Of a stretch of 64,000 nt of DNA, positions 3,868-58,533 are shown one piece after another. The DNA is from Sphyrna mokarran. Its lineage: Eukaryota. A program made the translations under genes and the position numbers. Within the stretch, counting starts at the first letter, position 1; each line of letters opens with the position of its first letter. The stretch is taken from the NCBI GenBank assembly GCA_024679065.1, contig JAGIQG010000023.1, forward strand, positions 10,354,001-10,418,000, written 5' to 3'. The notes under the pieces were generated by a model that did no database searches, was not told where the DNA came from, and worked only from the letters and a program-made list of their open reading frames with translations.

Positions 3868-3904
3868 ATGTGGATTTTGATTCTCCTTCTTTCCTCTCTG
3901 CCTG
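3868..3904 (+). CDS. Gene A exon 1, signal peptide MWILILLLSSLP
   Basis: acaATG start, hydrophobic leader, donor G|gtgagt (phase 1); same 37-nt length in gene B. Confidence 0.88.
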
Positions 3905-6900: not shown

Positions 6901-9900
6901 AGATTACAGCAGGCAGTAGAGAACGCCATCATATCGAGAGGATTTGACTATATTGTTTGGGGTGTTTTACTGTAATCGTGTAGATGAGGCCACACCTGGA
7001 GTATTGTGTGCAGTTTTGGTGGAATGATGTCCTTGCTGTCGACGGAGTACAGCAAAGGTTCACCAGGCTGACCTGTGGGATGGCAGATCTGTCATATGAG
7101 GGGAGAGTAAGTCAGTTAGGTTTATATTCACTAGAATTTAGAAGACTGAGAGGGGGTCTCATAGAAACTTATAAAATTCAAACAGGATTAGAAACAGTAA
7201 ATTCACTGAGAATGTTCCCAATGATGGGGGAGCCCTGAACTAGGAGGTCATAGTTTAAGGGGTAAATATTTTCAAACTGAGGCGAGGAGAAATTTTTTCA
7301 CCCAGAGGATGGTGAACGCAGAATTCACTCCCACAGAATGGAATTGAAGCCAAAATATTTTAAGAAGAAATTGGATATAGTTCTTGGGGCTAAGGAGATC
7401 AAACGGATATGGGGGGAAGAGGGAATCAGTATATTGAACTCAATGATCAGCAATGATCAAAATGAATGGTGGAACAGGCTTGAAGGGCCGAATGCCCTAC
7501 TCCTGTTTCTAGTTTCTATGTTTCTTCGGTCCTGCTCAGTGATCAGTCTCCAAGTTTCTGAATCTCCTCTGGCCAATCCTCAATCTCTTTCCTTTCTATG
7601 TTTGTCAGTAATGTTCTCATCATCTCCAATTCATCCTACAGTACATGTTATAGCAACAAAGTTGAGAAGATGGAAAATGTGCTGAATCCTCACACAACAC
7701 GACACTTCCAGTTTTCCGCGTTCCCTTCATTGCCCTATCATCCTCCCAAGACCTCTCACCACTCCCAAGACACTCCACGACAAACAAAAAGGACTCTGTT
7801 TTCCCAAAGTCACCCAAACCTCCCCCTGATTTCCACTCACCTCCCCAGGAAGCATCTAACTCCCGACAGACCTCCAGCTATTCCCTAAGGTTACCCATCA
7901 CCAAGGCCTGCAAAAATCAACCCTGCGACATTCCCAATCCATCCACAATCTGAATATCCCTTCTTGCCAGCATCAAATTCATGTCTAACTCTCAACGCAC
8001 CGACTGGTAGTGCCGCAAAATTCTCAGGTCTGCACATGGGTCTAAAAGTTAAAGTTTATTAATTAGTCACAGGTCTGGCTTACATTAACACTGCAATGAA
8101 GTTACTGTGAAAGTTCTCTAGAAACCACACTCCGCACCTGTTCAGGTCAATGCACCTAACCAGCACGTCTTTCAGAATGTGGGCAGAAACCAGAGCACCT
8201 GGAGGAAACCCACACAGACACAGGGAGAATGAATAAACTCCACACGAATAGTGATCCACACCGGAAATCGAACCCAGATCCCCGGCACTCTGAGACAGCA
8301 ATGCTAACCACAGTACCATCTCATGTCTATTTGTGTGTGCAAAATCTTTTGATGAAGTCACACACTGAGTGAAAGCCCACAGTGTGAGGCAGAACTTCAA
8401 TTTCTAGCTCCCTTACACTCTCCCAACTCCTACCTGTGAGTCAAGAAAATACCCCAAAATGTTTCAAAAGGAAAACATTGGCTGTGAAATACTTTGGGAG
8501 ACGCTGAGATTGTGGAAAGTCTCTATTTAAATGGTTATGTTAATCCGCATGGAATTTAACTCAAGAATGTACGTATTTGAATGAAGTAATTATTTCCTCT
8601 TCAATTTCTGAAATGTTGTCTCCTCAGTTTCAGGTGCATTGTGGGCAGAAACAAAAGTGACAGGAATTGTGGGAAGAACGATCACAATAAATTGTCACTA
8701 TGATGCAGGGTACGAGTCATATGTTAAATATTGGTGTCGCGGCTATTCTCGCCAGTGTAAGGTTGTAGCAAAGACATATTGGCAAAAGGGCAGAATATCA
8801 ATCACAGATGACAAGACACGAAGAGTATTTGTTGTCACTATGAAGGATCTTCGCTCAGGAGATGGAGGATGGTACAACTGTGGGATTGAACGAGCTGCAC
8901 TTCTCGATCCAATGTGTGCTGTCGAGCTTCAAATATCTTACGGTACATTTCTCAATGATTATCTTTATTCACCTCGACTGAAATGTTCGATCCATGTTTT
9001 ATCCGTGGGGAAACATAGACAACTGCGATATTCCGAGCAGTGCAGAGTCTGGTAGCTGGAAGGCAGAGATCGGGAAAACTGACTTACGTTACATAAATCC
9101 AATGTCAGGAGCTCGCATTCAGAAAAAAAGAAAAATTCAGACAATAACAACAGTTTTGTGGTCACCAGTAGATTCTATATCCCTGTTACTTTTTATTGAA
9201 TTCAAATTCTGCCATCTACCATGACAGGAATCAAACCCAAATCCCCAGAACATTCACTAAGTTTCCAAACACTCCAGCAATAATACCATTAGACTATCAC
9301 CTCTCCTATGGAATCCCTCCAAAGAATTGACCAAGATCCAGAGGCTTCCTGATATAATGAGTGACTCAAAATACTGAGGTCAGCCAAACAGAGTCCAATT
9401 TTACAAGTGAATTAATCTGGAGTTGTCATATTGTTTAGATGGTAAAAGCAGCCTCTTTAATAATTGTTGAGACATTGACCTCGATTTTCATTCCGGAGGC
9501 AGGTAGGGAGAATATGGAAAATTCCCAACTCAACCTGCCCTCCTCAGGAAAAACAGTCCATAAATGACAAGATTGTTATTTCTACAGGGGAGCAGGGGTG
9601 GGGGGTGTTTATTGTGGACTGGATACAGGCCAGCCAGCACAGGAAGATAGGCACAGAGAGCCAAAGTTTAAAAAGTTTATTTATTAGTCACAAGTAGGCT
9701 TACATTAATACTGTATTGAAGTTTCTGTAAAAATCCCCTAGTCACCACACTCCAGCACCAGGTCAGCCACATTGAGCAAGAACTTAGCATGGCCATCGTG
9801 GCGAACTAGCACATCGATCATAATCGGTTGGATTTAAAACTGGTGTTGCAGACTTCTTACTGTCAGAAGAAACCAGAGCACTTGGAGGAAACCCATGCAG

Positions 9901-12900: not shown

Positions 12901-15900
12901 GGACTTGGGCATCGCTGGCTGACCAGCACTTTTTGTCCATCCCTACTTGCCCTTGAGAAGGTGTTGGTGAGCTGCCTTCTTGAATCGCTGCAGTCCACGT
13001 GCTGTGGGTTGATCCACAATGCTATTAGGGAGGTAATTTCAGAATTTTGATCCAGCAACTGTGAAGGAACGGTGATATATTTCCAAGTCAGGGTGGTGAG
13101 TGGCTTGCAAGTGGTGGTGTTCCCAGGTATCTGCTGCCCTTGTCCTTCTAGATGGAAGCAGTCATGGGTTTGGAAGGTGCTGCTTAAGGATTTTTGATTC
13201 ATTGCGGAACTTGTAGATGGTAAGCAATGCTGCTACTGAGTGTCGGTGGTGGAGGGGATGGATGTTTGTGGATTTGGTGCCAATCAAGCAGGCTGGTTTG
13301 TCCTGGATGGTGCCAATTGTGTTGGTATCCATCCCATGGAGGAGTAGAAGTCAGATTCCAACATGGTTAACCACGCCTGAGGTTCTGAGGGGCAGAGAGC
13401 AGGAGAGTATTTTATTTTTAGATGTTCAGTCAGTGTCTAAATGTTTGCTTCTTCTCCACAGAACCCGTGTCTGTTCCTGAACTTAAATTTCTAACACCAC
13501 CAAATGCCTCATGTTCTGGGGGCTCAGTGTCCGTCTCCTGTGAGTCTCTCCAGGGATCACTTCCCATTCAGTACACGTGGTATGAAAAGGCCCCGTCTGG
13601 AGATTCAAAGATCTCTAACACCAATAAACTGGATCTACATTGTGAACGCTTCAAACAGCAACGTCATCAATATTACTGCACAGCCTCAAATAACCAGGGA
13701 GACAAATCCAGTAAAATGGTTACAGTGTCAGCGATCAACAGAACAGGGGAGAACTACAGTTATGAGATTCAAATCACAAGCAATGGTAAGTGTGACTGTA
13801 AACAAACCATTTGGTGATTGAATTTTTGAAGAAATGTTTAACTCATCAGAGTTTCTGGGCATAACGGGATTTGCGCTCACAGTGGACAGGCCCAAATAGT
13901 CACCCATCCCCCATCTCTACACCCCCCACCCCAATCACCCCCCTGCCCCACCCCATGCCCTCTCCACAATGTTTAACTCTTGTGTCTGGATTTTGAATGA
14001 TGTCAAAGACAAAAGAACAAAGGGAGAAATCAGGAGCACGTAACGAACGCAAATCAATATGGGACGTGTAATGCCCAACTCAAACAAGATGACAAACAAG
14101 TTCAATAATATTTTATGAAAAAGGAGTGAAGAGAGCAAATTAATGAGGGTCTGAGGAAAGGACAATGAAATGACTGGGGAGATCTTCCAGTGAACCAGCA
14201 TTAAAATGATGGCAGAATCTCCTCCCTCTGGGCTATAAAATTCCATCATTCCAGAAAGTTACCTTGTCCTAAAATTTAAATGTTTCAAATTCCATCACAT
14301 ACACACCCCTAAAGAAGATATCCCTGCTTACAAAGAACCAAGAAGAGTACAGCACAGGAACAGACCCTTCCGTCTTCCAAGCCTCTGCCAATCATGATGC
14401 CCCAAAGAAATTTTTAAAAAACCTTCTGCTCTTACTCAATCGATATCCCTCTATTCCCTTCCTATTCATGTACCCATCCAGATGTCTCTTAAATGTTGCT
14501 AATGTGCCTGCTTCCCCCATCTCCTCTGGCAGCGCATTCCAGGCACTCATCACTCTCTGAGCAAAAGACTTCTCCCCAAACATTTCCCTTAAACATTCTC
14601 CACCTCACCGTGAATCTGCAGTTTTGTTTTTCCACAGAGTGAGAGAAACACATTTCCCGGTGGTTGTTCTGGTTTAAAAAAAAAGAGCAAAATTGCCAGA
14701 AATTCCATTTGCCGCTGAAGATTGTAAGACCTGCAAAAGCAGTGCTATATCTTTCTTACATTTTGGAACAAATGATTTACTAAAATGCTCTGAGACAATC
14801 AGTGCCTAGTGGAGGGTGGTTGGGGAAGGATAGAGAGGAGAGGGTCTCCCACTGATAACATGGACCATTATAATTAAACGGACAGAAAATTACTGGCTGG
14901 TTTGTGATGTTCACGGTCAGTGAGTGAAGATTCCCCTCGTGACTAAGCTCATAGAACTGACCCCAGGCGATGACCGTTCTTAATGGTTCTCAACTGTCAA
15001 GTGACAGTTTAATGTATTCATGAGAAATTGATGACAAAAAGGGGAATATCTGGATTGAAATTCACCAATCCGAGCTCATTAACTGGCTTATGATTAACTG
15101 TCCACCACCAACTCTCAGATTTGGGGAATAAAATGAAATTTGCAGTAAAACTGGGCCAGATATGAGCCGCTTCTCTATTGTGACCAGAGAGGGAAAAATT
15201 ACACAGAAATCAGATCTTTCCTCAAGTACTGAAGTCCCATTTCACAACGACGCTCTCTCAGTTGATGGAGAGTGAAAATGAGGTGAATCTGAATGTTATT
15301 CCTATGTTTCAACAGAATCTAAATATTTATGTGAAGTTTCTACAACAGAATCACCAACTACAACACATTCCACAAGTACAAACATTATTACCACCACCAG
15401 CAGCAGCCAAACTCCAGAATCGAAAAATGAAGAAGAAGAAAGGTACAATGTTCTCATTGGGGATGTAATGATTGGCATGGACTTCTAGGCAATTGACAAA
15501 ATGTTCTTTAAACATTTGGAGATGATGTTGTTAATTGTTGTACTATGTGGCTGATCAGAATGGAAATGGTGGCTGGACCCACATTGTGGTGTTGTGTCAG
15601 CGTTCTAACCAAGGTCCAATTCTTTGTCATTAGAAATTACGAATAAGGGACAGAATTGTCTTACCCAATGGTTCCCTCTGCACAACTCAATGGCAAGGCA
15701 GACCTTATCTTCCATCCAATAGGACGGCTTGGTGGCACAGTGGTTAACACTGTTCCCTCACAGCATCAGGGTCCCAGGTTCGATTCCTAGCTTTGGTCTC
15801 TGTCTGTGCAGATTCTGCACACTCTCCCCATGTCTGCCTGTGTTTCCTCCGGGTGCTCCAGTTTCCGCCCACAGCCCAAAAGCCATGCTGGTTAGGTATA

Positions 15901-24110: not shown

Positions 24111-24169
24111 GAAAACCGTTCCTGCTGCTTATTGCTCCTTTTTGTTTTTGTGTATCAGTTCCATTCAAT

Positions 24170-25726: not shown

Positions 25727-25732
25727 AATAAA
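25727..25732 (+). terminator. Candidate polyadenylation signal for gene A
   Basis: AATAAA about 1.6 kb after the stop codon, in non-repeat AT-rich sequence. Confidence 0.35.
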
Positions 25733-25804
25733 GTAATTTCTGAAAATGTTCCAGAGCCTTCAGGGGTCACACATGGGAACAGTTGTGAATCCAGTAACCA
25801 TCTG

Positions 25805-35025: not shown

Positions 35026-35235
35026 AGGTTCTTGCTGAGTCAATCAGATTCAATCTCTTCCCATGTCTCGGAGTTTCCCTTCAGATCAGGGAATTTATTT
35101 GGACATATTGTGTCAAGACACACAGAGCTGATGGCTGGGGTTTAGCTAGTTTAATATTCTCATTGGTTGAAGAAAGTGTCATTCTCCAGCCTCACCCACC
35201 ACCAACTACATTAAGAGAAATACACAGCCCATGTC

Positions 35236-35592
35236 GGGGTGGCACAGTAGCACAGTGGTTAGCACTGCTGCTTCACAGCTCCAGGGACCTGGGTTCAATT
35301 CCCGGCTTGGATCACTGTCTGTGTGGAGTTTGCACATTCTCCCTGTGTCTGCGTGGGATTCTTCAGAGTGCTCCAGTTTTGTCCCACAGTCCAAAGATTT
35401 GTGGGTTAGGTTGATTAGCCATGCTAAAATTGCCCCTTAGTATCTTGAGATGAGTAGGTTAGCGGGATTAGCGGGTAACTATGTAGGGATGTGAAGGGGG
35501 GGGGGTTTGGTGGGCAGGTAGGGCCTGGGTGGGATTGTGGTTGGTGCAGACTTGATAGGCCATATGGCCTATTTCAAGACTGTAGGGATTCT
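35236..35592 (+). mobile_element. Full-length V-SINE, CR1-type tail
   Basis: A/B-box-like head, core and tail. Confidence 0.88.
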
Positions 35593-36005
35593 GTATCAGG
35601 GAGTTGAGAACAACTATCATCACATTGGAGCAGTTTGTCAATCACAATTTACTTACACCCAGAGTCTTCTCTCTGTGAATTGAAGTTCCTATCTGCCTCA
35701 GAATGTGTTTATGTGTCTGATAAATGGAACAATGGGGGTTGTTCTATCTGATATCAAGCAGCTCAGATCTCTTCACCCTGACAGAATTGTTCCTCGTCAC
35801 CAACAACAAGATTGAGATTAAAACAAAATATTAATAAAACATGCCTCACAATTCAGTAGAAGTAATAAGCCTGAGTCACCAACAGCCATCTTCATACCGC
35901 TGCTTTATTTTTCACTCTCTCAATGTAAGCCGGTGTAGTTGTTTTGTTAGATATGACTAACAAAAGTTCAAGATCTTACGAGCCAGATTCCATTATTTGG
36001 CTCAC

Positions 36006-36030
36006 TGTGGTTATGTGACATAATTTCCTG
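36006..36030 (+). promoter_or_regulatory. Putative RUNX + ETS composite element upstream of gene B
   Basis: TGTGGTT-N10-ATTTCCTG, as in gene A. Confidence 0.5.
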
Positions 36031-36146
36031 CTGGCTCCTTCCCCATTTTAAATTCCTTCTACAATTCATATTAAATACTTATTTCAGCGTGAGGCACAGG
36101 AGCTGGGGGACTGATGACAAGCACTGATCTGATCTCCAACAAAACA

Positions 36147-36183
36147 ATGTGGAGTTTGATTCTGCTCATTTGCTCTCTGTCCG
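36147..36183 (+). CDS. Gene B exon 1, signal peptide MWSLILLICSLS
   Basis: acaATG start, donor G|gtgagt; homologous to 3868-3904. Confidence 0.88.
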
Positions 36184-45100: not shown

Positions 45101-48100
45101 TGTAACATTTGATTGTGTTTATAACAAATCTCCTGATTGTTATATTATCCCAGCATCAAACTAATATTCTATGTCAAATAAAATATTTCTAAATAAAAGA
45201 AAGGGTCTGCTGCAATCAGCAAATTGATTGGATCCATTAAGTTAACTGGAAGCTGATGGTTTCTTGTTTTGGGTTTTACTAATTTTATTGGAAAATTGCC
45301 CATTTGAGATTTTGGTAAATAGGTACAGATTTTTTATTGTACTGCAAGACAAAGCAGCAAAAGCTCACACAGTTGTGATCATCATTGACTTACATTCAAA
45401 ACTCATCGGTTGACCCACTACACCAGCAGCGATCAACTCAGACCAGGGTCTCTATATGTTGTCCGAGAGCACTAAGCAGCAAATGACATGAGTTAAGATT
45501 GTAAGCCTGGACAAATGTATCTCAAGCCCTCAATTAGCACACGTATTGAGTAAGCCCAGTTCACAATACTCGAGAGAGAAATTTGCTGTGCTGTACGCCC
45601 CAGCACTCTCTCAGCTCATTTCCTGGAATACAAAATGGAGGTAGCTCTTTTCTTCTCCCTGGGGTTGTGTCACCTTTAACGAGGCTCACACCTCGTTATG
45701 AAGATCTCTATTTTTTTTATTTTAAACAGGGATATTCCATGCCAGGAAGACACAACTGCTGTCTCGTCAGAATGTGAGACAAATGTTAATGGCATTGTGT
45801 TGTTGCAACCACATGAATAAGAGCACTGCCCTCTTTTACTCAATATTCGGTTGATAATAGCAGGTTTTGAAATTTGAAAGAATGAATGTGCCAATTCATT
45901 GCCGAAGCTTTAACTGTTTCCATGTTGATTTCACACACACACACACATACATACACATGCATGCACACGCACACACACATACACAAATGCACATACGCGT
46001 TCGCACATATGCACGCACACATGCACAANNNNNNNNNNNNNNNNNNNNNNNNNNNNNNNNNNNNNNNNNNNNNNNNNNNNNNNNNNNNNNNNNNNNNNNN
46101 NNNNNNNNNNNNNNNNNNNNNNNNNNNNNNNNNNNNNNNNNNNNNNNNNNNNNNNNNNNNNNNNNNNNNNNNNNNTCACATGACAGATGTCCGCTGATGC
46201 ACATTGGAAGGCACTAACAGTCCAATTATGGAATGATGAAAATCCTATCAGACAGACAAATCCACTAAAAAGTAATAGCATGTCTTTGCGCAAATATGGT
46301 GAAAATTTGGAACTCCTTCCCCAAAAGCATGGTTGCGATACATTGAAAATGTTAAAACTGAGATTGGCAGATTGTATTCAGTAGCCAAAGTGGATAAACA
46401 GGGATAAGGTACAGACAAGATACAGGCTTTAACAAAGAGTCACCCAGACTTGAAACGTCAGCTCTTTTCTTTCCTTACAGATGCTGCCAGACCTGCTGAG
46501 ATTTTCCAGTATTTTCTCTTTTGGTATAAGATATATGTCACTTGTGATTTAAATGAAGTGTGGAACAGGCTCGAGGGGCTGAATGGCTAAATCGTTGTTC
46601 CATGCTCTGGATCAAGTGTTAATTTTACAGTGTGTCTGGTTGTGTCAGCCAGTGTGTGTGAGGCAAGATCACAGCTAGAAACATTTCAAAAATAGACTCT
46701 TTGGTCACTAGGCAAACTTTGGCCTGATTGATTCAGAGTCCAGCTCGTGGCCCTGACAGCAATGAAGACACACCAGCTCTCATTTAAAATGTTGGCGAAA
46801 ACGGTCACTTTTGACTATTCCTTTTTGCCAAAGAGGGAATTTTAACTCCCTCCTCCATCCTGCATCAGGATCCAGCAGCTTTACCAGCACAGATTGTGAT
46901 CTGAGAGGCACAGGAGTGCTTCACCCCGACCCCCTGGGGAAATATGTTGTACAATCTGTCCCTCGCCATGATTGGCTAACTCTGCCCCAAGCAAGAAAGC
47001 TTCCCTGATTGCCTCCTCGCGACTGTCACTTCCGGTTCACGCCCCCAAATCTTACATGACATACTCTCAATTCTGGAAGAGTTCTCAGCAGATTTTGCTG
47101 TTAAATTCAGCCCAAACTTTACTTTCATGAACACGTATTGGTTAGGTGCATTGACCCAAACAGGCGCTGGACTATGGAATTTCACAGTAATTTCATTGCA
47201 AGTGTTAATGTAAGCCTTACTTGTGACTAATAAATAAGCTTTAACTTTTAACTTTCACTTTCCTGCTTTTTCTAACTTTCTGGACAACACAAATGCACTT
47301 CCCATGTATAAACCCTGGTTAAGCATTCGCCCCTTGGAGATGTGGATGGGTTGGCGAGATTCCAACATGGACACCTCCTGGCTGAGATGCTGAAGGGATG
47401 AATTCACAGAGTGTTTGATTTTTAGATGTTCAGTCAGTTTCTAAATGTTTGTCTCTTTCCCACAGAACCCGTGTCTGTTCCTGTGCTTAGATTTCTATCA
47501 GCACCAAATGCCTCATGTTCTGGGGGCTCAGTGTCCGTCTCCTGTGAGTCTGTCCAGGGATCTCTTCCCATTCAGTACACATGGTATGAAAAGAGGCTGT
47601 CTGAAGATTCAAAGATCTCTGACACCAATAAACTGGATCTACATTGTCAATCCTTCACACAGCGACATCATCAATATTACTGCACGGCCTCAAATAACCA
47701 GGGAAACAAATCCAGTGAAATGGTTAATGTGCGGTTTTTAAATACAACTGGGAATTGCATTTATGAGATACATAGCAGCATTGGTAAGTGTAACTGTAAA
47801 CTAACATTGAAGTTAATGATTTTTATATTAATGTCCATCCATACTAGTTTCAAGTTGAGTGATTTGCAACTGAACAAATTCACTCTGTTTCATTTCTCAC
47901 CCATTCCAAACAAAGTCACTAATTTGCAGTCTTCATGAAAAATGACATAAAATATCCCCAGAAAAAGAATAAATATGGTGGAAACTCGATCATCCCATGA
48001 AATGGAGACAGCTTTTTATTGCGGACCTTGCAGAAACCTAAAAGCCCATTTGGGAAATGGTGTAAAAGTAAACTCGCCATTGTCCCAGATGACCTTAGGC

Positions 48101-51100
48101 TACTCTCCCTTTTGACAGAGAGAGCTGACCGGTGATGATTTAACCTCGGTGGTGGGGGGGGGTCACCACATCTCAGGCAAATGGTTCAAGATGCATATGG
48201 AATAGGCTTTCCTCTGCTATTTTATCCAGCAGCATCATGGTACCACCCCAATACCATAGGGGAAAGTGTCAACGTCGAACTTCAAGCGAGAACAAACTAA
48301 GTTTCTCCAATCTCTCCTCATAGCTAGTGCCCCTCCATTCTAGGCAATATCCTGCTAAATATTTTCTGAATCCTGTCCAAATCCTTCTGGTAGTGTAGCA
48401 ATCAGCATTGAACGCTATATTCCAAGTGCGGCCTAACTAATGTTCTATAAAGCTGCAACATGACAATTAAACTCAATGCACCCAGCCAATGAAGGCAAGC
48501 GTGCTGTATGCTTTCTTGACTGCCTTCTCCACCTGCGTTGCCTGTACACGCAGATCCCTCTGTCTTTCAACACCTTAAGGATTCTACCATTTACTGCATA
48601 TTTACCAACTGCATTCGACCTTCCAAAATGCATTACCTCACATTTGTCCAGATTCAACTCCATTTGCCATCTGTCCGCCCAAGTCGCCAACTGATCTATA
48701 TTCTGCTGTATCCTCTGATGGTTCTCGTTACTGAAATCTCAGAAAACTGACCCCACGTGACAGGAAATGGCCATTCACAATATTAGCAAATGGCGATTTA
48801 ATATATTCATGTGAATATCTGGACTGAGGTGCACCAAACTCAACTCGTTCACTGGTGCATGAGTATCTGTGCACCACCAACTCTCAGATATGGGGAATAA
48901 AATGAAATTCCCAATAAAAATGGGCCACTGACAGCTATTAGCCACCTCTCTACTGTGAGGGGAAAGATACTCAGTGATAAATTACACCAACCATGCTTTT
49001 TCTCAAGTACTGAAGTTCCATTTCACAACGACACTCTCTAAGTTGACTACAAATGAAAATGAGGTGAATCTGAATGTTATTCTTATGTTTCATAGTACCA
49101 AAATATTCCTGTGAAGCTTTTACAACAGAATCACCAACTGTGACAAGTACAAATACAAATTCCACTGGCGACCATAGTGAATCTTCAGAGTTGAAAAATG
49201 ATGAAAGGTACAATGTTCTCATTGAGGGTGTAATGATTGGTACTGTTTCTATGTGAGGAATGAAATGTTCTTTAAACAGTTGGGCAAGTAATGTTTGAGC
49301 ATCTGCATTGTGTTGGCTGTGAGATGGTGCTTGTTTCATTTTTCACCTTGATCACCTCAATCTAACCTCGTGGTTTAGAAACAAAGAAACATAAAAAATA
49401 GAAGCCGGAGGAGGACATTTGACTCTGCTCCGCCATTCATTGTGATTGGAGTGAGGCACTCACTGAATGTTAAAATGGGCAGTGCGGGATTGTAAGGCCT
49501 GTTTCCTGTGCTGTGTTGTTCTTTGTTCTTTGTTGTTTGTTGCTGACCATTCAACTCAATAACCTGCTCCCACCTTCCTCCCATATTATAGACACGTTAT
49601 GCTTCAAGTGCAATATCTAATCGCTTCTTGAAAACACTCAGAGTGGGATTTTCTGGCCACGCTCGCCCCAAAGCCAGAGGTCAATGGACTTTGCATGGTC
49701 TGTATCGGGCCTGCTACAATTCCCATGATGGCGAGGTGGGAAAATTCAACCCTCAATGTTTTGGCTGGAACTACTTTCTGTGCTAGCAAATTCCATAGTC
49801 TGCCCACTTTCAGGGTGAAGATAATTCTCCTCACCTCAGTCCAACTTGTATCCTAAATTGAGAGCCCCACCATTGGGAACATCCTTCTTGGATCTACTCT
49901 GTGTAGCCCAGTTAGAATTTTATAGGTTTCTATGTAATGATGAGTTGTACTTACCAAACGTACCTTACTGCTATTTACACTGACAGAATATTTGGTAGTG
50001 ACAGGGAGGAATTAGAGCGATTTGTCCACGCAGCCCTCAGAATCACAGCTCCATCTTGCAGCACTGGTGTCTTATTCCCATATTATTAGCTCGAGCTATC
50101 TACAATTGTACTCTGATGTAAATACTGAGGAATTGGGTCTTTGAAGTTGCGATGGTCATAAAGATTAACAACTAAATATCAGAGGCTGTTGGAAAGAGAC
50201 AGCTGGTAAATCCTCACCTGTGGAGATAATAGACCCATTTATCATTTGGGTGTGGACACTTGTTCAGAATTCTAGTCCACACCTGAACCTAAACAGGTCC
50301 ATTCACCCCACAGATGCTGACTGACCTGATGAATGTTTCCAGAAACTTCACATCCCTAACACATGCAATGAATTTCCTTTTAACCAGATCAGCATAGAGA
50401 AGAATTGAATGTTTATGGATTTTGCACAATGATATTGGCCAGAATTCTCCCAAAAAAATTCTAAGGGTCGAACTCACATCAAAACTGGAGTAAGTCACAT
50501 TGGTTTATTCAGTGGGAGTTCAGAGAAGAATCTCCCACGCTCTGTGCACTGCAGAGGCCACCGGTGTGAGTATCACTAGGGGGCAAGGCCTATCCCTGCT
50601 GGAGAGGCTGAGATCAGGGTGTTGAGTGGGCCACTGCGCCTGTGCTGATCTCAACACTGACAGGTCAGCACATGGGTAGTGGCCCCACACTACCAGTCTC
50701 CCAACTGCTGGTCAGCTCAATTGCTAGCAAACTCCGTGAGCCCCCGCAATACTTACGCCCTGCACTCTACCCTGGCCTGATCACTGGCCCCCTGACTGTA
50801 CCCGGACCCATCCCTGCAAATCCACCCCCTTTCCTGGCCTGCCCCAATCTCCAGTACCCATCTCCTGCAGTGAAATTTCCTGAATGAATTAAGCAGAGCG
50901 CAGTGTTGCACTGTCACCTGCTGAGTCAGAGATTATGACTTCACTTTCCTTCCAAAGAATGAGTGCGTTAACTGGGCTAACACTCCAGTGCCATACTGAG
51001 GGAGTGCTGTGCTGTTAAAGTGTCCCCTTTTTCAAATGTGGTAAACCCAGGGCCCCATCCATTCTCTCTGGTGAATTTAATGGATCTCTTGGGGACATTC

Positions 51101-54100
51101 ATAAAACAGGTCAAGTTTCTCTGGAACCTGGAACAATATTTAGCCCTTAAGCAATATCATTAAACAAAACAATTTATCTCTCCATTCATCTAATTGTTGT
51201 TTGTGAGAGCAGGCTGTGTGCAAATGAGATAGTAAATCTGCTAGCTTTCGGCGTTTGTGCCTTCATCAGGCAAATGAAGTGTTCTGGTCTCCAAAAGCAT
51301 ACATATGAGCACAGACAGTTTACAGATTGCTGATTAGAATGCGAATCCTATTAGATTAGAATGCGGATTCGCATTCTAATCAGCAATCTGTAAACTGTCT
51401 GTGCTGATATGTGTGCTTTTGGAGACCAGAACACTTCATTCGCCTGATGAAGGCACAAACGCCGAAAGCCAGCAGATTTACTATCAAATAAATCGGTTGG
51501 ATTTAAAATTGGTGTTGCCAGCCTCTTACTGAGTTTACCCCAGTCCAACGCCGGCATCTCTACATCATGCAAATGAGACGCCAGGTTTGTCACGTTGCAA
51601 CAGTTCCTGTGCACCAAAATGATTTCATTCTCTGTAAAGTGCTTTGAGGTGTTGTAAGGGAATTAAGACAACTTTATAAGGGCCTTCCTTGAAATATTTC
51701 TTTAACCAAATAGCCATGAATCAATTGTGAACCTGCACTGACTCTTTCCTATTCTCTATATCACAGTCTGGTTTTCATTGTGCTCGGAGTGCTGGGGGGC
51801 ATCCTTGTTCTGTTTGTTGTTTCTCTACTATTGTACCTGAAGATCAACAAGGGTGAGTTTCTATATCTCTTTAATCATTTCATTTTATATCGGTAGCTTG
51901 TCGCAGAATATATAGTTTGTTGCGTCAATCAACAATCACCTCTGATTGTTGTATTCTCATTCGAGTCAACACATATGGAAGAACAATTAAGTTGAGTCTT
52001 GCTGAAAAAAGAGAGACATAAGGCAGAATCCTCCCACATGGGGACTCAGGCCGAAATTCTCTGGCCATTCACGCCCTGCTTCCACTGTCAGCAAGAAGGG
52101 GGAATTTGGAGAATCTCAGCAGTGGGCGAGGTCGGAAAATTCGACCTGAAATCTGGTGGTAGGGCAAGAACAGGGAGTGTTTCCCACTGAGGATAACAAC
52201 AGGAAAATACACCATATCTTCAGGCTCCAAATACTTTTATTATACAACCAGTGATTTAGCACCGCATTCTGTGGTGAGGGGTGGGGTGGGGGGGAGATGG
52301 CGGGTATGATAGTGCACCTCCTTTATCACATCTGGCTGCCATATTTAAAAAGTGCCCCGCATCACTGACCCAGTGTTGGAAGAAATAAGGTAGACCTCCT
52401 GAAGAGGCTGAAACTGGAAAAGATGGACCTCCAGGAAGTTAGACGCAAAGGTAGTGGAGTCTAAAAATGGAGGACATAGGTTTAAAGTGGGAGGGGAGAT
52501 ACGAAAGGGCCCAGAGGGGCAATTTTTTCACAAAGAGGGTGTTGAGTGTCTGGAACAAGTAGGAGGGATAGGTACAGTTTTGTCTTTTAAAAAGCATTTA
52601 CATAGTTACGTGGTTAAGATGGGAGTATGGGCCAAACAGGGGCAATTGGAACAAGCTTCATTTATGGAAAAATTGGACCGAAGGGCCTGTTTCCATACTG
52701 TAAATGTCTATGGTTCTGTCACTCTGAGGCTGGAAGATGGACCTTTTCAATGACACTAAAGCTCTGCCTGAGAGATATGCCCAGATGTGTTCTGGACTAG
52801 TGTGTTTTTCCATTGGTTTCGCAGAGAATCGGGTGTTAGGGTGAGGATTCTATTCAAGTTTTCACCTGCATCCCATCAGCAGGATGCAGTCCAGTTTCAC
52901 ACTGGTCTCCAATGGGATCCCAGATATGTCATGGCTGATGGCATGAGATCCCACACGGGGGAATTCACACACTGTGAAACCAATCTTTGAGCTAGATTTC
53001 TCCTCCTCCTCTTCCTCTACTGATGAACCTGCATGCTGCCAAAGCATGCTGTCAAAGCAATTAATTCTCCCTTCTCAGGCAGTATAAATTGTTGTTGGTA
53101 TCCTTGTGAGCTATCCTGACAAGAGCAAGATGAAAAGCATCAACAACATGCCTATTTTTTCAACAGTACGCCACTTCCATTCCCACCAAACAGCTTCCTG
53201 TTTCTGGGTAACAACAATTAATATTGAATTTTGTATTAATAAAACTTTACGAGTTTAGAATGACAGAGGTGTATGGCAGGAAATGATTTGGTCAAAATGT
53301 GATATATCAGCTTTGGTCTTTCAGCTTTAAGACTGAGTTTCTATGATGCAGCCATTGTAATTAGAAATTGAGGATTTAATGTGCTAAACTTCTCCCATTT
53401 GATCTAATTACTATAATCCACAATCAAATCCAGGACAGATACTTTTTTAAAGGGTATTAGTTTGCAAGTTAAATTATCAGCATTGAAATGTTTACTGTAT
53501 ACTCAAGAAAAGTTAAAATTTATTTATTAGTCACAAGTAGACTTATATTCACATTGCAATGAAGTTACTGTGAAAATCCATTCATTGCCACATTCCAGCA
53601 CCTGTTCAGGTACACTGAGGGAGAATTTTTATTTATTCATTCGTGAGAAAGTGCATCACTGGCTGGCCAGTATTTATTACCCAACCCTAGTTGCCCAAGG
53701 GCAGTTGAAAGTCAACCACATTGCTATGGGTCTGGATTCACATATAGGCCAGACTGGGTAAGGACTGCAGATTTCTTCCCCTAAAGGACATTAGGGAACC
53801 AGATGGATTTTTCTGACAATTGACAATGGTTGCAAGATCATCTGTAGATTCTTAATTCCAGATTTTTTTCTTTTTTTAATTCGACCAGCTGGAATTCGAA
53901 TCTGGGTTCCCCATAACATTGGCTGGTTTCTGGATTAATAGTCTCGTGATAATACCATTAGGCCATTGTCTTCCCTAAAGCAGAGCCAATTCACCTAACC
54001 TGCGCATCTTTGAATTGTGGGAGGAAATCGGAGCACCCAGAGGAAAACCACGCAGGCACAGAGAGAACGTGCAAACTCCACACAGACAGTGATCCAAGCT

Positions 54101-57100
54101 AGGAATCAAACCCTGGTCCCTGGCACTGTAAGGCAACAGTGCTGACCACTGTGCCTCCATGCCACCCCCTAGCAGTAACTAGGTTCTCTCTAAAATTGAA
54201 TAGTGTTCAGCTTTCTGTTTAAATCGGCTTGTTTTGCTACTTGCTGAGTGAATGGATTTTCTTGTTGTCAAATGAATCAGAAGTTCCCCACCTCCAACTC
54301 CCACTACGGTGTCAATAGACACTCTAAACTGAGGCCCCAATTTTAACTTCCTCTTACAGGGATTATAGTGAGTAAATATTGGGCCTCTAATTTCTGTGAC
54401 AAATTGTTAGACCTTCCAACAATGGCATACATTTCAAGAAACAAAAGAGAAAATGCTAGAAAATCTCAACAGGGCTGGCAGCATCTGTAAGGAGAGAAAA
54501 GTCTGACGCTTCAAGTCGAGATGACCCTTTGTCAAAGCCTTTGACCCTTTATCAAAATTGAGCTTTGACAAAGGACTTGAAACATCAGCTCTTTTCTCTC
54601 CTTAGAGATGCTGCCAGACCTGCTGAGATTTTCCAGTATTTTCTCTTCTAGTTTCAGATTCCAGCATCCACAGTAATTTGCTTTCATATGGCACAGGAAC
54701 TTGTTTTCTGGATTGATTTGTTTTTTCTCTGTGTCACTAAATCCAAATCACACAGGAGTTAATGTTCACATTATTAAGCTGGAAGAGAGCTATGTAGAAA
54801 TAAATAGGAAGAATATCAGGTGATCTTTCTGAGACAATCAGCTCTGTCAGAGTGAATAGGGCAAACTTTTCTATTCCGCTAGCCACAGGAATGGCAGTGG
54901 GTGAGGGGTGGACCATGGAAACATCTGTTGACTTTGGGCAGGATATTCTGGTTTCAGGGCAAGCACAGTGGGAAAATCCCACCCAGTGTCACATGTTAGT
55001 AGCATGGTCGCGAGGGTCTGGTATACGTGATCTATTTTATCTAGAAAAACTGTAGTCTTGGTCTGGAAAATGGGAATAAAATGAAGATTAAAGAATTGGA
55101 TGGAAGGAGATTGATAGAGATTCAGATGCACTTGATGTGCAGATTAACCTCATAGCAGGGTGAAAAGATATTTATGTAAGTAAAGTGGTGAATAATAGGG
55201 CATAGAATTATAGAATTAATGACAAAGAGGGTAGGAGTTTGAAAGGAGAAATAAGAATTAATGTCATGTTTGTATGCTACAAGTGTGAGTGACAAGGTTA
55301 CTTGTTCAGATAAGACAAGATCAAAGAGGCATACATCTATACATAAGTGACAGAGTTAGTCCTGCACTGGAGGGACCATCTAACAAGTGATCAATATTAT
55401 AGTCACACCCAACTAGAAACAGAGTTCCCCAAAAAATAAGATTTAATCCTGCAGACTGCTATTTTAAACTCCAGAGGCTTTACACTGAACTGGAAAACAA
55501 GTTTTCCAAAAGAAAGATAGAGGTCATGGTGGTTATTATTGATGGAGTTCATGTTAAAAACTGATGTGGAGATGCCGGCTTTAGACTAGGATGGGCACAG
55601 TAAGAAGTTTCACAATACCAGGTTAAAGTTCAACAGGTTTATTTGGGTAGCACAACTTTTGAAACCTATAAGATGTTATTTTGAGGAAGATATATTCCCA
55701 GATTTTAGGGAAGAAGATAGATTTGAAATGGAGTTAATTTAAGTATATTGTTTGTGTGTGAGCATTATTGCAATTAATTATAATCTTCATTCCGTATTGT
55801 TGTCTTTCTTGTGTGTTTTATAGTTTGCTGCCTTTCTTGTGTGTTTTATAGTTTAATAACCTTTTTCTAGTTGAATGGTTACAACAAGACTGAACTTTTC
55901 CTCACTTCCTCTCTTTCCTCACATTATGCTCAATCACAAAATGAACAGTTAAGAATCAATGTTCCAAGTTTCCCTTCTAGAATTTTGGGTGCCCTTGCAT
56001 TTAGCATCATCAGGATTCATAACATATTAAACTGGTTTATTAACACATATATAAGAGGTTACATAGCTGCATATCTCTCCTAAATGAAGACTGTTCCTCC
56101 TCTTTCCTGAGGAAGTAGCATGGGACCGTTGATGTCATTGATAAAACATAGTCCACATCACTCATTAGCATAGCTAATCCATTAACCTATCACATTACAA
56201 ATACAAATTCCATTTGTCAAGATTATTTGGTATTACAATGAGACCAGATTTGATTTAATTTGATTTATTATTGCCATATGTATTCGCATATTGTGAAAAA
56301 TATTGCTTCTAATGCACTATAAAGACAAAGCTTAGTGTTCATAGGGAAGGAAATGAGAGAGTGCAGAATGTAGTGTTACAGTCATAGCTAGGGTGTAGGT
56401 AAAGATCAACTTAATGCAACATAGGTCCATTCAAACGTCTGACACTGCAGGAAAGAAACTTTTTTGAGTTCGTTTGTATGTGACCTTAGACTTTTGCCAA
56501 CAGAAGAGGGTGGAAGAGAGAATATCCGGGGTGCGCAGGGTCCTTATTTATGCTAGCTGCTTTGCTGAGGCAAAGTGCAGACAGAATCATTTGGGAATCA
56601 ATATAGATCAATGGAAGATTATGCACATTTGCAACTCGTGATCAATTTAGAGGTTTTAAACCATTCCTGTTGTTGCTCTTTCAACAGTTATATTGTCATT
56701 TTTCAGGTTCAAGTGGCATTCTAAGTCATCAAAGAGATAAGACTCTTCATGATAATCAGGTAAGGAGAATAAATATGAACATTAATAACATTAGGAAATG
56801 AGGAAAGTTGGATGAATTATTGAGAATTTACATCAGGAATAGGCCATTCGGCTCAACTGCCTGATACTAGTTTTGATGCTCCTTATGAGCCTTTTATCAT
56901 CCCTATCAGCACATCCTTCAGCTTCTTTCTTCCTCAAATGCTTGTGTTGAAATGCAGCAAAGTTATTTGACTTAATTCATTTCCCAGGAAGGAATAAGGA
57001 AATCAAAAGAAAAACCAAAGGGTATCAGAATCATAGAATCCCTAGAACATTTGGCCCATTGATTCTGCACTGGCAACAATCGCACCCAGGCCTTATCTCC

Positions 57101-58533
57101 GTGATCCCACATATTTACTTATCAACACCAAGAGGGAATTTACAATGGCCAATCAACCTAGTCCATACATCTTTGGACTGTAAGAGGAAACCAGATGAAT
57201 CCCATGCAATCACAGAGAGAACATGCAAACTCCACACAGACAGCCACCCAGAATGTAAAATGTATTACCATAAAAGTTACCATAAATGCATTCCTTGGAA
57301 TAGAAATAAATGTTGAATGGGGTACAATTAAGATCATTGAACCATAGAATCTCTGCAGTGCAGAAGGAGGTCATCCACCCCATTGAGTTGACTCTCTGAA
57401 ATGGCATCTTACCCAGACCCAACCTCCCCTTACCCCCTTGCCCTATTCTCGTAACCCTGTTCATGTATAATGGCCAATCCACCTAATCTGGGTACTAAGG
57501 GGGAAATTTTATTATGACAAATACACCTGCACATCTTCGGACTGTGAGAAGAAATGGAGCATCTGGAGGAACCCATGCAGACACAGGGAGAATGCGCAAA
57601 CTCCACGCAGTCACCCAAGACCGGAATCAAACCCAAGTCCCTGGTACTCTAAGGCAACAGCGCTAACCACTGTATCATCATGCTGCCCAGTATTGAGAAG
57701 AACAACAATGGAAAGTCACTTTTTATGCTTTTATGATTTTTTAAAACTCATTCATGGGATGTGAGCATCATTGGCTCGACCAGCATTTATTGCCCAGCTC
57801 TAATTGACCTTAACTGAAAGGTTCACTAGGTTATTGCAGAGGGCATTTAAGAACAACCAATTGTTGTAGTTCTGGAGTCACCAGTAGTTGGTAGATTTCC
57901 CTCCAGAAAGGACATTTGTGAACCAAATGTTATTTTTAAATGGCAATTGATTCAAGGTCATCATAAGAATTTTAATTCCAGATTTTTGCTGAAATAACCT
58001 TTGTCTGTGGAGAGATTCAAACTGGAATCCCCAGCAAATTACCTTCCCTCACTGAATTACTAGTCCAGCGACAATGCTACTACATGACTGCCAATGCTTG
58101 TTGCTGTGCTGTAAACATCTTTAAACATTTTGCAATACTTCATAAGCTGATTTGCAATAATTGATAAATAATTTCCTTCTCAGGCCATCAATCAGGATGA
58201 TTTGAAATAAATGTGATTTTTTTTTTGTTATTTTAGCAGTTGGCAGCCATGGAAGAGAACGCTGTGTATGCAAAGGTAAACCGCACTCAAAAGAACGCAG
58301 CAGGAACTACCTCGTTGGATAATGATGGAATCACATATGCAGCAGTGCAGTTTCAGAAGAACGCATCTACAAGGAGAGGTGAAGTGTCACGTCACTCAGT
58401 TAACAACGCGGACAGTGTCGTCTACAGTGCTATCAGTATTCCGAGCCAGCCACAACGGAAAAATCGAGAAGCTCCAAGACTGGACACTCCACAGGAATCC
58501 GAAATGACTACATATGCTAACTTCACTCGTTAG
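36147..58533 (+). CDS. Gene B: paralogous CD300/CMRF35/pIgR-like (MDIR-like) inhibitory receptor, 404 aa; join(36147..36183,39113..39424,47466..47783,49096..49207,51767..51852,56707..56759,58237..58533)
   Basis: Seven GT-AG exons with the same phases as gene A form a 1215-nt open frame. The N-runs in intron 2 (each <230 nt) are too short to hide a full Ig exon if their lengths are real. Confidence 0.9.
36967..37287 (+). mobile_element. Full-length V-SINE
   Basis: Head, core and ctgtagggattctctgattctatga tail. Confidence 0.85.
39113..39424 (+). CDS. Gene B exon 2, CD300/pIgR-type IgV domain
   Basis: ITIDCHY..VKYWCQGWTRQC..DLRSGDAGWYSCGIETPGLDP; donor G|gtacgt. Confidence 0.95.
39964..40468. 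repeat. CA-rich simple repeat with N-runs (39964-40168, 40246-40468)
   Basis: CA-rich island between two N blocks. Confidence 0.85.
41310..41750. mobile_element. Cluster of family C pLTR-like arms in inverted arrangement
   Basis: aaatgctggaaaatcgcagcaggtctggcagc ... gctgcccgacctgctgagattttccagcattt. Confidence 0.65.
41896..41934 (-). ncRNA. Minimal type I hammerhead ribozyme (Penelope pLTR), intact
   Basis: UUCGC CUGACGA A GGC-loop-GCC GAAA GCUC GCGGA; stems I and II pair, palindromic AGCU stem III. Confidence 0.75.
43547..43585 (+). ncRNA. Minimal hammerhead ribozyme (Penelope pLTR); core intact, one stem I mismatch
   Basis: ttcgc CTGACGA aggctacaaaggcc GAAA gcta gcaga. Confidence 0.7.
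44272..44562 (-). mobile_element. V-SINE, CR1-type tail
   Basis: Head and tail similarity. Confidence 0.8.
44590..44735. repeat. Degenerate (TG)n
   Basis: Directly visible. Confidence 0.8.
45932..46175. repeat. CA-rich repeat followed by an N-run (46029-46175)
   Basis: Directly visible. Confidence 0.85.
47466..47783 (+). CDS. Gene B exon 3, C2-type Ig domain
   Basis: EPVSVPVL..VSCESVQGSLPIQYTWY..YYCTASN; donor G|gtaagt. Confidence 0.93.
48290..48715 (-). mobile_element. CR1 RT fragment
   Basis: WADRWQMELNLDKCEVMHFGRSN. Confidence 0.85.
49096..49207 (+). CDS. Gene B exon 4, stalk
   Basis: VPKYSCEAFTTESPTVTSTNTNSTGDHSESSELKNDE; acceptor tcatag, donor AG|gtacaa. Confidence 0.88.
49378..49935 (-). 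mobile_element. CR1 3' end interrupted by a MITE
   Basis: MRRIIFTLKVGRLWNLL and CR1 tail. Confidence 0.7.
49641..49752. mobile_element. PIF/Harbinger-like MITE with 3-bp TSD
   Basis: TCA-[gagtgggattttc..gaaaattcaaccc]-TCA inside a CR1. Confidence 0.7.
51228..51567. mobile_element. Non-coding fold-back Penelope pLTR element (family B) with 11-bp TSD
   Basis: 121-bp arms 51228-51348 / 51365-51485; TSD tgcaaatgaga at 51219-51229 and 51568-51578; empty site at about 16950 in gene A. Confidence 0.9.
51237..51274 (-). ncRNA. Minimal hammerhead ribozyme, intact
   Basis: UUUGC CUGAUGA A GGC ACAAAC GCC GAAA GCUA GCAGA. Confidence 0.75.
51767..51852 (+). CDS. Gene B exon 5, transmembrane segment
   Basis: SLVFIVLGVLGGILVLFVVSLLLYLKINK; acceptor tcacag, donor G|gtgagt. 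Confidence 0.92.
52450..52717 (+). mobile_element. CR1 3' end
   Basis: ggacataggtttaaagtg..gaccgaagggcctgtttcc. Confidence 0.75.
53510..54168 (-). mobile_element. V-SINE split by a second-family SINE
   Basis: Tail 53510-53630, insert 53635-53975, core and head 53990-54168. Confidence 0.75.
54438..54684. mobile_element. Palindromic family C pLTR-like element
   Basis: Inverted arms; absent at the paralogous site near 19450. Confidence 0.7.
56707..56759 (+). CDS. Gene B exon 6, short cytoplasmic exon
   Basis: GSSGILSHQRDKTLHDNQ; acceptor tttcag, donor gtaagg. Confidence 0.85.
57025..57690 (-). mobile_element. Two V-SINE copies
   Basis: Tails catagaatcc / catagaatctc with SINE cores. Confidence 0.75.
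58237..58533 (+). CDS. Gene B exon 7, cytoplasmic tail with ITIMs
   Basis: AVYAKV, ITYAAV, VVYSAI, TTYANF, then TAG. Confidence 0.93.
   Translation, partial: QLAAMEENAVYAKVNRTQKNAAGTTSLDNDGITYAAVQFQKNASTRRGEVSRHSVNNADSVVYSAISIPSQPQRKNREAPRLDTPQESEMTTYANFTR

What the first reader, a model, noticed from the sequence alone, without database searches (positions are those of the whole stretch)
3868..58533. Pair of hybrid inhibitory receptors: CD300-type V domain joined to an FCRL/PECAM-like C2 domain
Seen: domain 1 has the CD300/pIgR signature (KYWC-x6-C, RISITD, FxVTMxDLRxxDxGWYxCGI). Domain 2 has the PVSxP..C-ES-x-QGSLPIQY-W..YYCTASN pattern resembling FCRL/PECAM C2 domains. Known: mammalian CD300s have one V domain and FCRLs lack this V type, whereas skate MDIRs mix such domains and include ITIM-bearing forms. 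Inference: these are MDIR-like genes linking the CD300/pIgR and FcR-like lineages, and candidates for lipid-sensing or IgM/IgW/IgNAR-binding inhibitory receptors. This is the main biological system in the window. The family type is known; the ligands cannot be determined from sequence.
Basis: partly seen in the sequence, partly recalled or inferred. Interest (0 to 1): 0.75.

Follow-up and report, generated by a model that had tools for sequence, protein, structure and literature searches.

The report
Two shark MDIR inhibitory receptor genes
These are two intact neighbouring copies of a shark immune-receptor gene of a family already described in skates (MDIR), predicted to damp immune-cell activity and likely to sense membrane lipids rather than antibodies, and database gene models with the same two-domain design exist in coelacanth and a caecilian.

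Summary
Observation confirmed. The window holds two tandem seven-exon genes on the + strand (3868-24110, 417 aa; 36147-58533, 404 aa; 66% identical). Each reads leader, V domain, C2 domain, stalk, uncharged membrane helix and a tail with four tyrosine motifs. They belong to the known MDIR family: the C2 exon is 73% and 65% identical to skate MDIR5 and MDIR3, and the V-C2 pair is a repeated cassette across sharks, rays and chimaera. The hybrid design is therefore not new. Added here: (1) the V domain is closest to CD300lf and keeps its calcium/lipid-binding Asp98 site but not Trp89; (2) the C2 domain resembles FCRL5 domains 4-9, not the Fc-binding domains 1-3, which weakens the antibody-receptor idea; (3) the C2 family has four extra cysteines and a predicted extra hairpin; (4) coelacanth and caecilian gene models carry the same cassette. 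A sister relation to FCRL was supported in one tree and unresolved in another. Ligand, expression and splicing in this species are untested. The scan's index showed no earlier finding of this family. Verdict: new members of a known family.

The parts
3868..3904 (+). Gene 1 exon 1: start codon and most of the signal peptide (phase 1)
   Evidence: 81% nt identity to gene 2 exon 1; matches N-termini of family proteins
8628..8942 (+). Gene 1 exon 2: CD300-type V domain; C-C' cysteine pair, FG-loop Asp, one extra Cys (C109) and a one-residue FG-loop insertion
13462..13785 (+). Gene 1 exon 3: MDIR-type C2 domain; the family's post-G-strand Cys is replaced by Tyr
15316..15442 (+). Gene 1 exon 4: conserved stalk Cys, then Ser/Thr-rich stalk
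   Evidence: (paralogous block 15044-15519)
17150..17235 (+). Gene 1 exon 5: uncharged transmembrane helix
20933..20985 (+). Gene 1 exon 6: short cytoplasmic exon
23799..24110 (+). Gene 1 exon 7: tail with IVYSHI (Y325), ITYAAV (Y353), IVYSTV (Y382), TIYANF (Y412) and stop codon
36147..36183 (+). Gene 2 exon 1: start codon and most of the signal peptide
39113..39424 (+). Gene 2 exon 2: CD300-type V domain; GLDP loop aligns without gaps to CD300lf Gly96-Leu97-Asp98-Pro99
47466..47783 (+). Gene 2 exon 3: MDIR-type C2 domain with the three exon-encoded extra cysteines
49096..49207 (+). Gene 2 exon 4: conserved stalk Cys, then Ser/Thr-rich stalk
51767..51852 (+). Gene 2 exon 5: uncharged transmembrane helix
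   Evidence: paralogous block
56707..56759 (+). Gene 2 exon 6: short cytoplasmic exon
58237..58533 (+). Gene 2 exon 7: tail with AVYAKV (Y317), ITYAAV (Y340), VVYSAI (Y369), TTYANF (Y399) and stop codon
21..27017 (+). First copy of the tandem duplication unit; collinear blocks match 34672-59324
   Evidence: blocks at about 70-90% nt identity, offsets 30-35 kb
34672..59324 (+). Second copy of the tandem duplication unit

Best explanation
These are two intact tandem paralogues of the cartilaginous-fish MDIR family that likely act as inhibitory leukocyte receptors, with a CD300-type V domain predicted to bind lipid head groups through a calcium ion, held out on a C2 domain that likely serves as a disulfide-braced spacer. 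Step 1 (shown): each gene encodes leader, V, C2, stalk, uncharged helix and tyrosine-motif tail in one open frame. Step 2 (inferred from homologous proteins): the exons are spliced in that order. Step 3 (inferred from CD300lf): the FG-loop Asp and backbone carbonyls hold Ca2+, which binds the phosphate of an exposed lipid in the cleft between the FG and C-C' loops. Step 4 (inferred from established ITIM biology): clustering leads to tyrosine phosphorylation and recruitment of SHP-1/SHP-2-type phosphatases, which damp activation. Step 5 (inferred): the two copies differ mainly in the V-domain loops, so they likely see different ligands, and they likely pair with activating family members that carry an Arg in the membrane helix. 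My odds: MDIR membership about 0.95, inhibitory signalling about 0.85, lipid ligand about 0.55.
For: Family: gene 2 C2 exon is 73% identical to skate MDIR5 (ABC86800) and 65% to MDIR3 (ABC86797). Whole proteins are 42-44% identical to the last cassette and tail of MDIR3 and 72-76% to a Mustelus asterias model. An elephant shark protein deposited as MDIR2 (AFK11143, 405 aa) has the same V-C2-helix-tail plan. The C2 domains form one clade with skate MDIRs at 100/98 and 97. Splicing: 33 of the 120 listed homologues are single V-C2 proteins, several of which align over the full length, and only 2 of 120 lack a V domain. V domain: best single-domain match is mouse CD300lf, 69-70 bits, against 30-38 for human pIgR D1. 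The AlphaFold model of a 62%-identical catshark homologue (V domain pLDDT about 90-95) matches CD300lf at Z 19.6, rmsd 1.2, 104 aligned; trout pIgR Z 16.9; human pIgR D1 Z 15.9 (same order). Pocket: PMC6166816 (passages) names Asp98, the carbonyls of Lys94 and Gly96, Cys36-Cys44, Tyr34, Trp89, Gln41, Arg42 and Met100. Gene 2 keeps Tyr34, both Cys, an Arg in the C-C' loop, Gly96, Asp98 and Pro99; gene 1 keeps Tyr34, both Cys, the Arg, Asp98, Pro99 and Met100. Tail: three canonical ITIMs in gene 1 and two in gene 2, plus one near-ITIM in gene 2 and a terminal TxYxxF in both; the four tyrosine positions recur in most of 24 aligned family tails. Paralogue differences: 16 of 29 loop positions against 12 of 70 framework positions.
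Against: No ligand, expression or splice read was obtained for these genes. The pocket is incomplete: Trp89 is replaced by Asn or Ser (Trp in only 12 of 303 family V domains), the C-C' loop is one residue shorter than in CD300lf, and gene 1 has a one-residue insertion and no Gly before the Asp. The Asp is not invariant: 124 of 199 V domains by pattern, 180 of 303 by alignment, both with redundant rows, and it is absent from all five V domains of skate MDIR3 and MDIR5, so lipid binding cannot be the whole family's job. Trout pIgR D1 is also a close match with the same CDR1 length, and the caecilian V domain scores slightly higher on human pIgR D1 (57 bits) than on CD300lf (52). The folds were made on homologues, not on the window's spliced proteins. 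dN/dS between the copies is 0.6-0.8 in every region, which does not show strong constraint. The loop-versus-framework test used loop limits that I set after seeing the alignment.
Confidence: 0.6

Rival explanations
1. Inhibitory receptors for a protein ligand (a self marker or a pathogen surface protein), diversified as paired receptors; the CD300-like pocket is a relic or only part of the binding face.
For: Differences between the copies and across the family concentrate in the V loops (mean column entropy 2.1 bits in loops against 1.2 in framework over 276 distinct V domains). The Asp is missing in about 40% of family V domains and Trp89 in nearly all. Activating forms with an Arg-bearing helix are common: 42 of 137 proteins by pattern, against 56 with ITIM tails. 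CD300lf itself binds a viral protein through the lipid pocket (PMC6166816, passages).
Against: Loop variability is usual for Ig domains. Both window genes keep the Asp. No dN/dS above 1 over the V domain (0.62).
Confidence: 0.2
2. Inhibitory receptors for shark antibodies (IgM, IgW or IgNAR), the missing Fc receptors of cartilaginous fish.
For: The V domain belongs to the group that includes pIgR and FCMR. Trout pIgR D1 is the second-best fold match and has the same CDR1 length. The C2 domain's best sequence match in the PDB is FCRL5. PMC4016189 (passages) found no PIGR, FcRL or classical FcR homologues in sharks, so the role is vacant.
Against: The C2 domain scores 15-32 bits on FCRL5 domains 4-9 and under 2 bits on the N-terminal domains, whereas D1-D3 are sufficient for Fc binding (PMC12757038, passages). 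CDR1 is two residues shorter than in mammalian pIgR D1. FCMR is a weak match, 23 bits.
Confidence: 0.13
3. The exons are real but the main product differs from my two gene models: for example a read-through V-C2-V-C2 transcript joining gene 1 exon 3 to gene 2 exon 2, or one copy that is silent.
For: All Ig exons are phase 1-1, so such a join would keep the frame. More than half of the 120 listed homologues have two or more cassettes, and the closest one has three. Gene 1 has an altered cysteine pattern.
Against: Each copy has its own leader exon, conserved upstream region, stalk, helix, tail and stop, with no frameshift or stop in any of 14 exons. Many homologous models are single-cassette and align over the full length.
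Confidence: 0.07

Closest known systems
[quoted passage not shown] Named by Cannon et al. 2006, PMID 16738934 (seen only as a reference-list entry; content recalled)
   Same: Same V and C2 domain types, same V-C2 order, same extra cysteines, same kind of tyrosine-motif tail as MDIR3; same overall plan and length as the elephant shark MDIR2 entry.
   Different: One cassette instead of two; both window V domains keep the CD300lf Asp98 site, which all five V domains of skate MDIR3 and MDIR5 lack; gene 1 has lost one C2 cysteine and gained one in V.
Automatic gene models in other sharks, e.g. Scyliorhinus canicula LOC119978459 (P0106), Heterodontus francisci P0087, Heptranchias perlo P0103, Mustelus asterias P0013
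   Same: 59-76% identity over most of the length, same domain order and tail.
   Different: They carry uninformative or misleading names ('uncharacterized', 'polymeric immunoglobulin receptor-like', 'Fc receptor-like protein 5'); P0013 has three cassettes.
Mouse CD300lf / CLM-1 (PDB 6C74, 1ZOX, 5OR7)
   Same: Best single-domain sequence and fold match for the V domain; C-C' cysteine pair, CDR1 length, FG-loop Asp; inhibitory tail type.
   Different: CD300s have one Ig domain (recalled); the shark proteins add a C2 domain, lack Trp89 and have a C-C' loop one residue shorter.
FCRL5 and related FCRL membrane-proximal domains (PDB 9LOC)
   Same: Best sequence match for the C2 domain among solved proteins; shares the PVS-x-P start, GS-x-PI-x-Y and YYCTA-x-N motifs.
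   Different: About 30-37% identity only; no match to Fc-binding D1-D3; FCRL domains lack the four extra cysteines; sister relation not robust.
Polymeric Ig receptors (trout 5F1S, human D1 1XED)
   Same: Related V domain with the C-C' cysteine pair.
   Different: pIgR ectodomains are strings of V domains; mammalian D1 has a longer CDR1; lower fold scores than CD300lf.

Membership tests
MDIR | V-type domain related to CD300, TREM and pIgR (as summarised in PMC3031540) | tested here: met
MDIR | C2 domain of the type found in skate MDIRs | tested here: met
   73% and 65% identity to MDIR5 and MDIR3; one clade at 100/98 and 97
MDIR | Modular build: Ig domains on separate phase 1-1 exons, reused in varying numbers | tested here: met
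   exon phases; one to nine C2 domains per protein among 120 homologues
MDIR | Multigene family with activating and inhibitory forms | tested here: met
   two tandem copies here, both with ITIM tails; Arg-helix and ITIM forms among homologues
MDIR | Spliced transcript expressed in immune tissue | not testable with these tools
   no reads could be laid for this species; splicing is inferred from homologous proteins
CD300 | Second disulfide between the C and C' strands of the V domain | tested here: met
   C49 and C56 align to CD300lf Cys36 and Cys44; the bond itself is inferred
CD300 | Single Ig domain in the ectodomain (recalled definition) | tested here: not met
   two Ig exons per gene
CD300 | CD300lf metal and lipid pocket residues | tested here: inconclusive
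   Asp98, Tyr34, both Cys and an Arg kept; Trp89 lost; loop one residue shorter
CD300 | Conserved gene neighbourhood with tetrapod CD300 clusters | not testable with these tools
   no other gene found in the window and no genome held
FCRL | Ectodomain of C2 domains including the Fc-binding D1-D3 types | tested here: not met
   N-terminal domain is V-set; C2 matches only D4-D9
FCRL | C2 domain nests inside the FCRL clade | tested here: not met
   forms its own clade in both trees
FCRL | C2 domain is sister to FCRL domains (shared origin) | tested here: inconclusive
   98/81 with a long-branch warning; unresolved; PECAM1, Allergin-1 and C17orf99 were not in either tree
pIgR / FCMR / FCAMR | Longer CDR1 of mammalian pIgR domain 1 | tested here: not met
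   two-residue gap against mouse and human pIgR D1; trout pIgR D1 has the shark length
pIgR / FCMR / FCAMR | Binds polymeric immunoglobulin | not testable with these tools
   needs a binding assay
PECAM1 | C2 domain groups with PECAM1 domains | not tested
   no named PECAM1 sequence was in hand

The most novel reading that the evidence does not exclude
The V plus six-cysteine C2 cassette is the ancestral jawed-vertebrate form of the CD300 group. It was expanded in cartilaginous fish, survived as a relic in coelacanth and caecilians, and was cut down to one V domain in mammals. Its calcium-lipid site predates the shark-mammal split, and its C2 domain shares an ancestor with the membrane-proximal FCRL domains, so one ancient gene type joined parts of what became two receptor families.
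Probability: 0.25. Interest if true: 0.65.

Novelty: new member of a known kind. Interest (0 to 1): 0.33.

Why it matters
As genes, these are ordinary members of a described family, already present under vague names in other shark annotations. Their use is as test cases. MDIRs have no ligand that I could find in the held literature, and sharks have no recognised Fc receptor (PMC4016189, passages). A single-cassette pair that keeps the CD300lf Asp allows one clean experiment: lipid and calcium binding against antibody binding, with an Asp mutant as control. The coelacanth and caecilian models suggest that the cassette is older than the split between cartilaginous and bony fish, which bears on where CD300, pIgR and FCRL came from.

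Tried and rejected
Hidden extra Ig exons or a third gene in the window: none found by tblastn; three N gaps (39964-40168, 40246-40467, 46029-46175) are each too short for a full Ig exon. RNA support: no RNA holder listed for 8400-17400, which says nothing about expression. Genome context: no genome held. More bony-vertebrate relatives: word-based searches with the caecilian C2 region and the coelacanth protein returned only the queries (1 of 36 and 1 of 92 candidates); these searches are insensitive at 40% identity, so the range in bony vertebrates is unknown. ESM Atlas: one cluster of 82 chordate proteins matches the whole caecilian ectodomain (TM 0.85) but its taxa are not given, so it may be the shark family itself. 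Fold of the C2 domain: first model poor (pLDDT about 55), second good, but fold searches gave only generic Ig matches (no Foldseek hit at E <= 0.001; best Z 8.2); FCRL5 and PECAM1 were not among the listed rows, which excludes nothing. Disulfide pairing could not be read from the models because no coordinates are returned. A V-domain tree with CD300, pIgR, FCMR and TREM was not built: no such full sequences were in hand. The TIM21 hit on the gene 2 tail (below cut-off) is taken as chance. Literature: searches found one held paper that mentions MDIRs in this sense (PMC3031540); Cannon 2006 and Cannon 2010 are not held, so I cannot say that the coelacanth and caecilian forms or the extra cysteines are unpublished. 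PMC9652883 and bioRxiv 2021.06.11.448072 (passages) had nothing on the question. Earlier scan findings: none on this family. No complex prediction was run, since lipids cannot be scored as partner and no shark antibody chain was in hand.
Full report
What is in the window. The sequence is shark DNA by inference: every close homologue is from a cartilaginous fish and the closest is a Mustelus asterias model. No genome is held. A self-comparison shows a tandem duplication, with collinear blocks from about 21-27017 matching 34672-59324. Each copy holds one seven-exon gene on the + strand. Gene 1: 3868-3904, 8628-8942, 13462-13785, 15316-15442, 17150-17235, 20933-20985, 23799-24110 (417 aa). Gene 2: 36147-36183, 39113-39424, 47466-47783, 49096-49207, 51767-51852, 56707-56759, 58237-58533 (404 aa). 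All introns are GT-AG and neither frame has a stop or shift. The proteins are 66% identical; exons are 73-87% identical in DNA. No further Ig exon was found on either strand.

The observation. Pfam calls exon 2 V-set and exon 3 a generic Ig domain, with Ig_C17orf99 among the matches. The helices carry no charged residue. The tails hold three canonical ITIMs in gene 1, two plus one near-ITIM in gene 2, and a terminal TxYxxF motif in both; the ITIM consensus used is recalled. The four tyrosine positions recur in most of the 24 tails aligned.

Family. The gene 2 C2 exon found 137 proteins among 199 candidates; the 120 listed come from sharks, rays, skates and a chimaera, and include skate MDIR5 (73%) and MDIR3 (65%). 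Among these 120, 33 are V-C2, 28 V-C2-V-C2, 16 have three cassettes, one has nine, and only 2 lack a V domain. Some of the long models may be fused neighbours; the chimaera model P0081 has a second leader in its middle. A chimaera protein deposited as MDIR2 has the single-cassette plan and length of the window's genes. PMC3031540 (passages) describes MDIRs of skate and zebrafish as multigene activating/inhibitory receptors similar to CD300, TREM/TLT and pIgR. The naming paper, Cannon et al. 2006, is not held; from recall it already notes similarity to FcR homologues and ITIM-bearing forms. So the hybrid design is the known family's standard unit.

The V domain. The best single-domain match in the PDB is mouse CD300lf (69-70 bits), ahead of human CD300LF and CD300A (46-65), human pIgR D1 (30-38), TREM2 (28) and FCMR (23); whole pIgR chains rank higher only by summing five domains. 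A model of the catshark homologue P0106 has a confident V domain that matches CD300lf at Z 19.6 (rmsd 1.2, 104 aligned), trout pIgR at 16.9 and human pIgR D1 at 15.9 (one search agrees). PMC6166816 (passages) places Ca2+ on Asp98 and the carbonyls of Lys94 and Gly96, and the choline in a cleft lined by Cys36-Cys44, Tyr34, Trp89, Gln41, Arg42 and Met100. Gene 2 aligns to this loop without gaps and keeps Gly96, Asp98 and Pro99; both genes keep Tyr34, the two cysteines, an Arg in the C-C' loop and the Asp. Against this: Trp89 is lost, the C-C' loop is one residue shorter, and gene 1 has an insertion before the Asp. Across the family the Asp is present in 124 of 199 V domains by pattern and 180 of 303 by alignment, and is absent from skate MDIR3 and MDIR5. 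The two copies differ at 16 of 29 loop positions and 12 of 70 framework positions (loop limits set by me afterwards).

The C2 domain. FCRL5 is the best sequence match in the PDB, but only its domains 4-9 score (15-32 bits); the N-terminal domains score under 2 bits. PMC12757038 (passages) shows that D1-D3 are sufficient for Fc binding. The FCRL likeness therefore does not support antibody binding. In a 97-domain tree the MDIR C2 domains form one clade (100/98), sister to FCRL domains at 98/81 with a long-branch warning. In a 66-domain tree of domain cores with wider outgroups and a newt FCRL, the clade holds (97) but its link to FCRL is unresolved. Rows were my picks from the two searches; PECAM1, Allergin-1 and C17orf99 were absent. 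Fold searches with a good C2 model gave only generic Ig matches.

Extra cysteines. The family's C2 unit has four cysteines beyond the canonical pair: before strand B (A'), at the end of strand E, after strand G, and at the start of the stalk exon. Of 269 C2 domains, 247 could be parsed (22 dropped). The A' Cys is present in 99 of 108 membrane-proximal domains, which are followed by the stalk exon, but in only 69 of 139 internal ones, which are not; the post-G Cys stays in 134 of 139 internal ones. This points to A'-stalk and E-post-G pairs, though the rows are related and the loss may be few events. A model of a ray homologue (mean pLDDT 84.5) adds a confident two-strand hairpin after strand G, with the post-G and stalk cysteines at its two ends, which would also allow those two to pair. 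The pairing is open. Gene 1 lacks the post-G Cys and has an extra Cys in V (C109), shared with the Mustelus model.

Range. A search of 1.84 billion representatives with the C2 exon gave 617 hits at E <= 0.001, 150 listed. Profiles built from the shark domains separate the family (C2 score above 100 bits) from generic Ig proteins (below 50), with two proteins in between at 70 and 75 bits. These are models from the caecilian Rhinatrema bivittatum (XP_029428703) and the coelacanth (XP_014347698, partial V). Both have V then C2, all four extra cysteines, the FG-loop Asp and the Trp89-site Trp; the coelacanth model has the Arg-bearing helix of activating MDIRs. They are 36-40% identical to the window's proteins and pair with each other inside the MDIR clade (99/92; 97). 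Two follow-up searches found no more, but they are insensitive at this distance. I found no mention of these forms in the held library, which lacks the key papers.

Mechanism. Most likely each protein sits on a leukocyte with the V domain outermost, binds exposed lipid head groups through calcium, and on clustering recruits SH2 phosphatases through its ITIMs, opposing activating family members. The anatomy is shown. Splicing, cell type, ligand and signalling are inferred. A protein ligand (0.2) and antibody binding (0.13) remain as rivals; PMC4016189 (passages) reports no PIGR or FcRL homologues in sharks, which is why the latter would matter.

Verdict. Observation confirmed; interpretation right on family, partly right on the link to FcR-like genes, unsupported on antibody binding. 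New members of a known kind. Interest 0.33: ordinary genes, with a testable ligand prediction and a lead on the family's age.

Noticed in passing
window 42160-43320 and 31743-32938, minus strand: Two decayed copies of one repeat (77% identical over about 1 kb). The copy at 42160-42834 has an open stretch with a GIY-YIG endonuclease match at Pfam's cut-off, which suggests a Penelope-type retroelement (recalled association).
   Followed up: partly
window 3727-3756 and 36004-36033: Both upstream regions keep ACTGTGGTT and ATTTCCTGCTG about 110-140 bases before the ATG. These resemble RUNX and ETS sites (consensus recalled), as in leukocyte promoters. With the regions about 77% identical, such matches are not unlikely by chance.
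   Followed up: partly
window about 5760-7520 (+), 21300-23620 (+, with an insert on the other strand), 27070-30470 (-): Decayed LINE-like remnants; open stretches at 22644-23219 and 28122-28583 (minus strand) read like reverse-transcriptase elements. Not classified by a tool.
   Followed up: no
window 10998-11871 and 44902-45525; 12299-12470: Non-coding blocks in intron 2 are kept between the copies (83% over 250 bases), and part is duplicated again within gene 1. No family protein matched there.
   Followed up: partly
window 8628-8634, 39113-39119, 23799-23802, 58237-58240: In-frame alternative acceptors: a second AG six bases into each V exon and CAG-CAG at each last exon. They would change the proteins by two residues or one.
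   Followed up: no
P0075 (Rhinoraja longicauda model): A model named TRIM69-like ends in MDIR C2-V-C2 domains and an Arg-bearing helix; probably two neighbours fused by the annotation, which would place a TRIM gene beside the MDIR cluster.
   Followed up: no
P0001, P0002, P0004 and similar: Models with six to nine V-C2 cassettes in one frame. If real they are very long receptors; several lack a membrane helix and may be partial or fused.
   Followed up: no
window 39964-40467 and 46029-46175: Three assembly gaps beside CA repeats in gene 2 intron 2.
   Followed up: no
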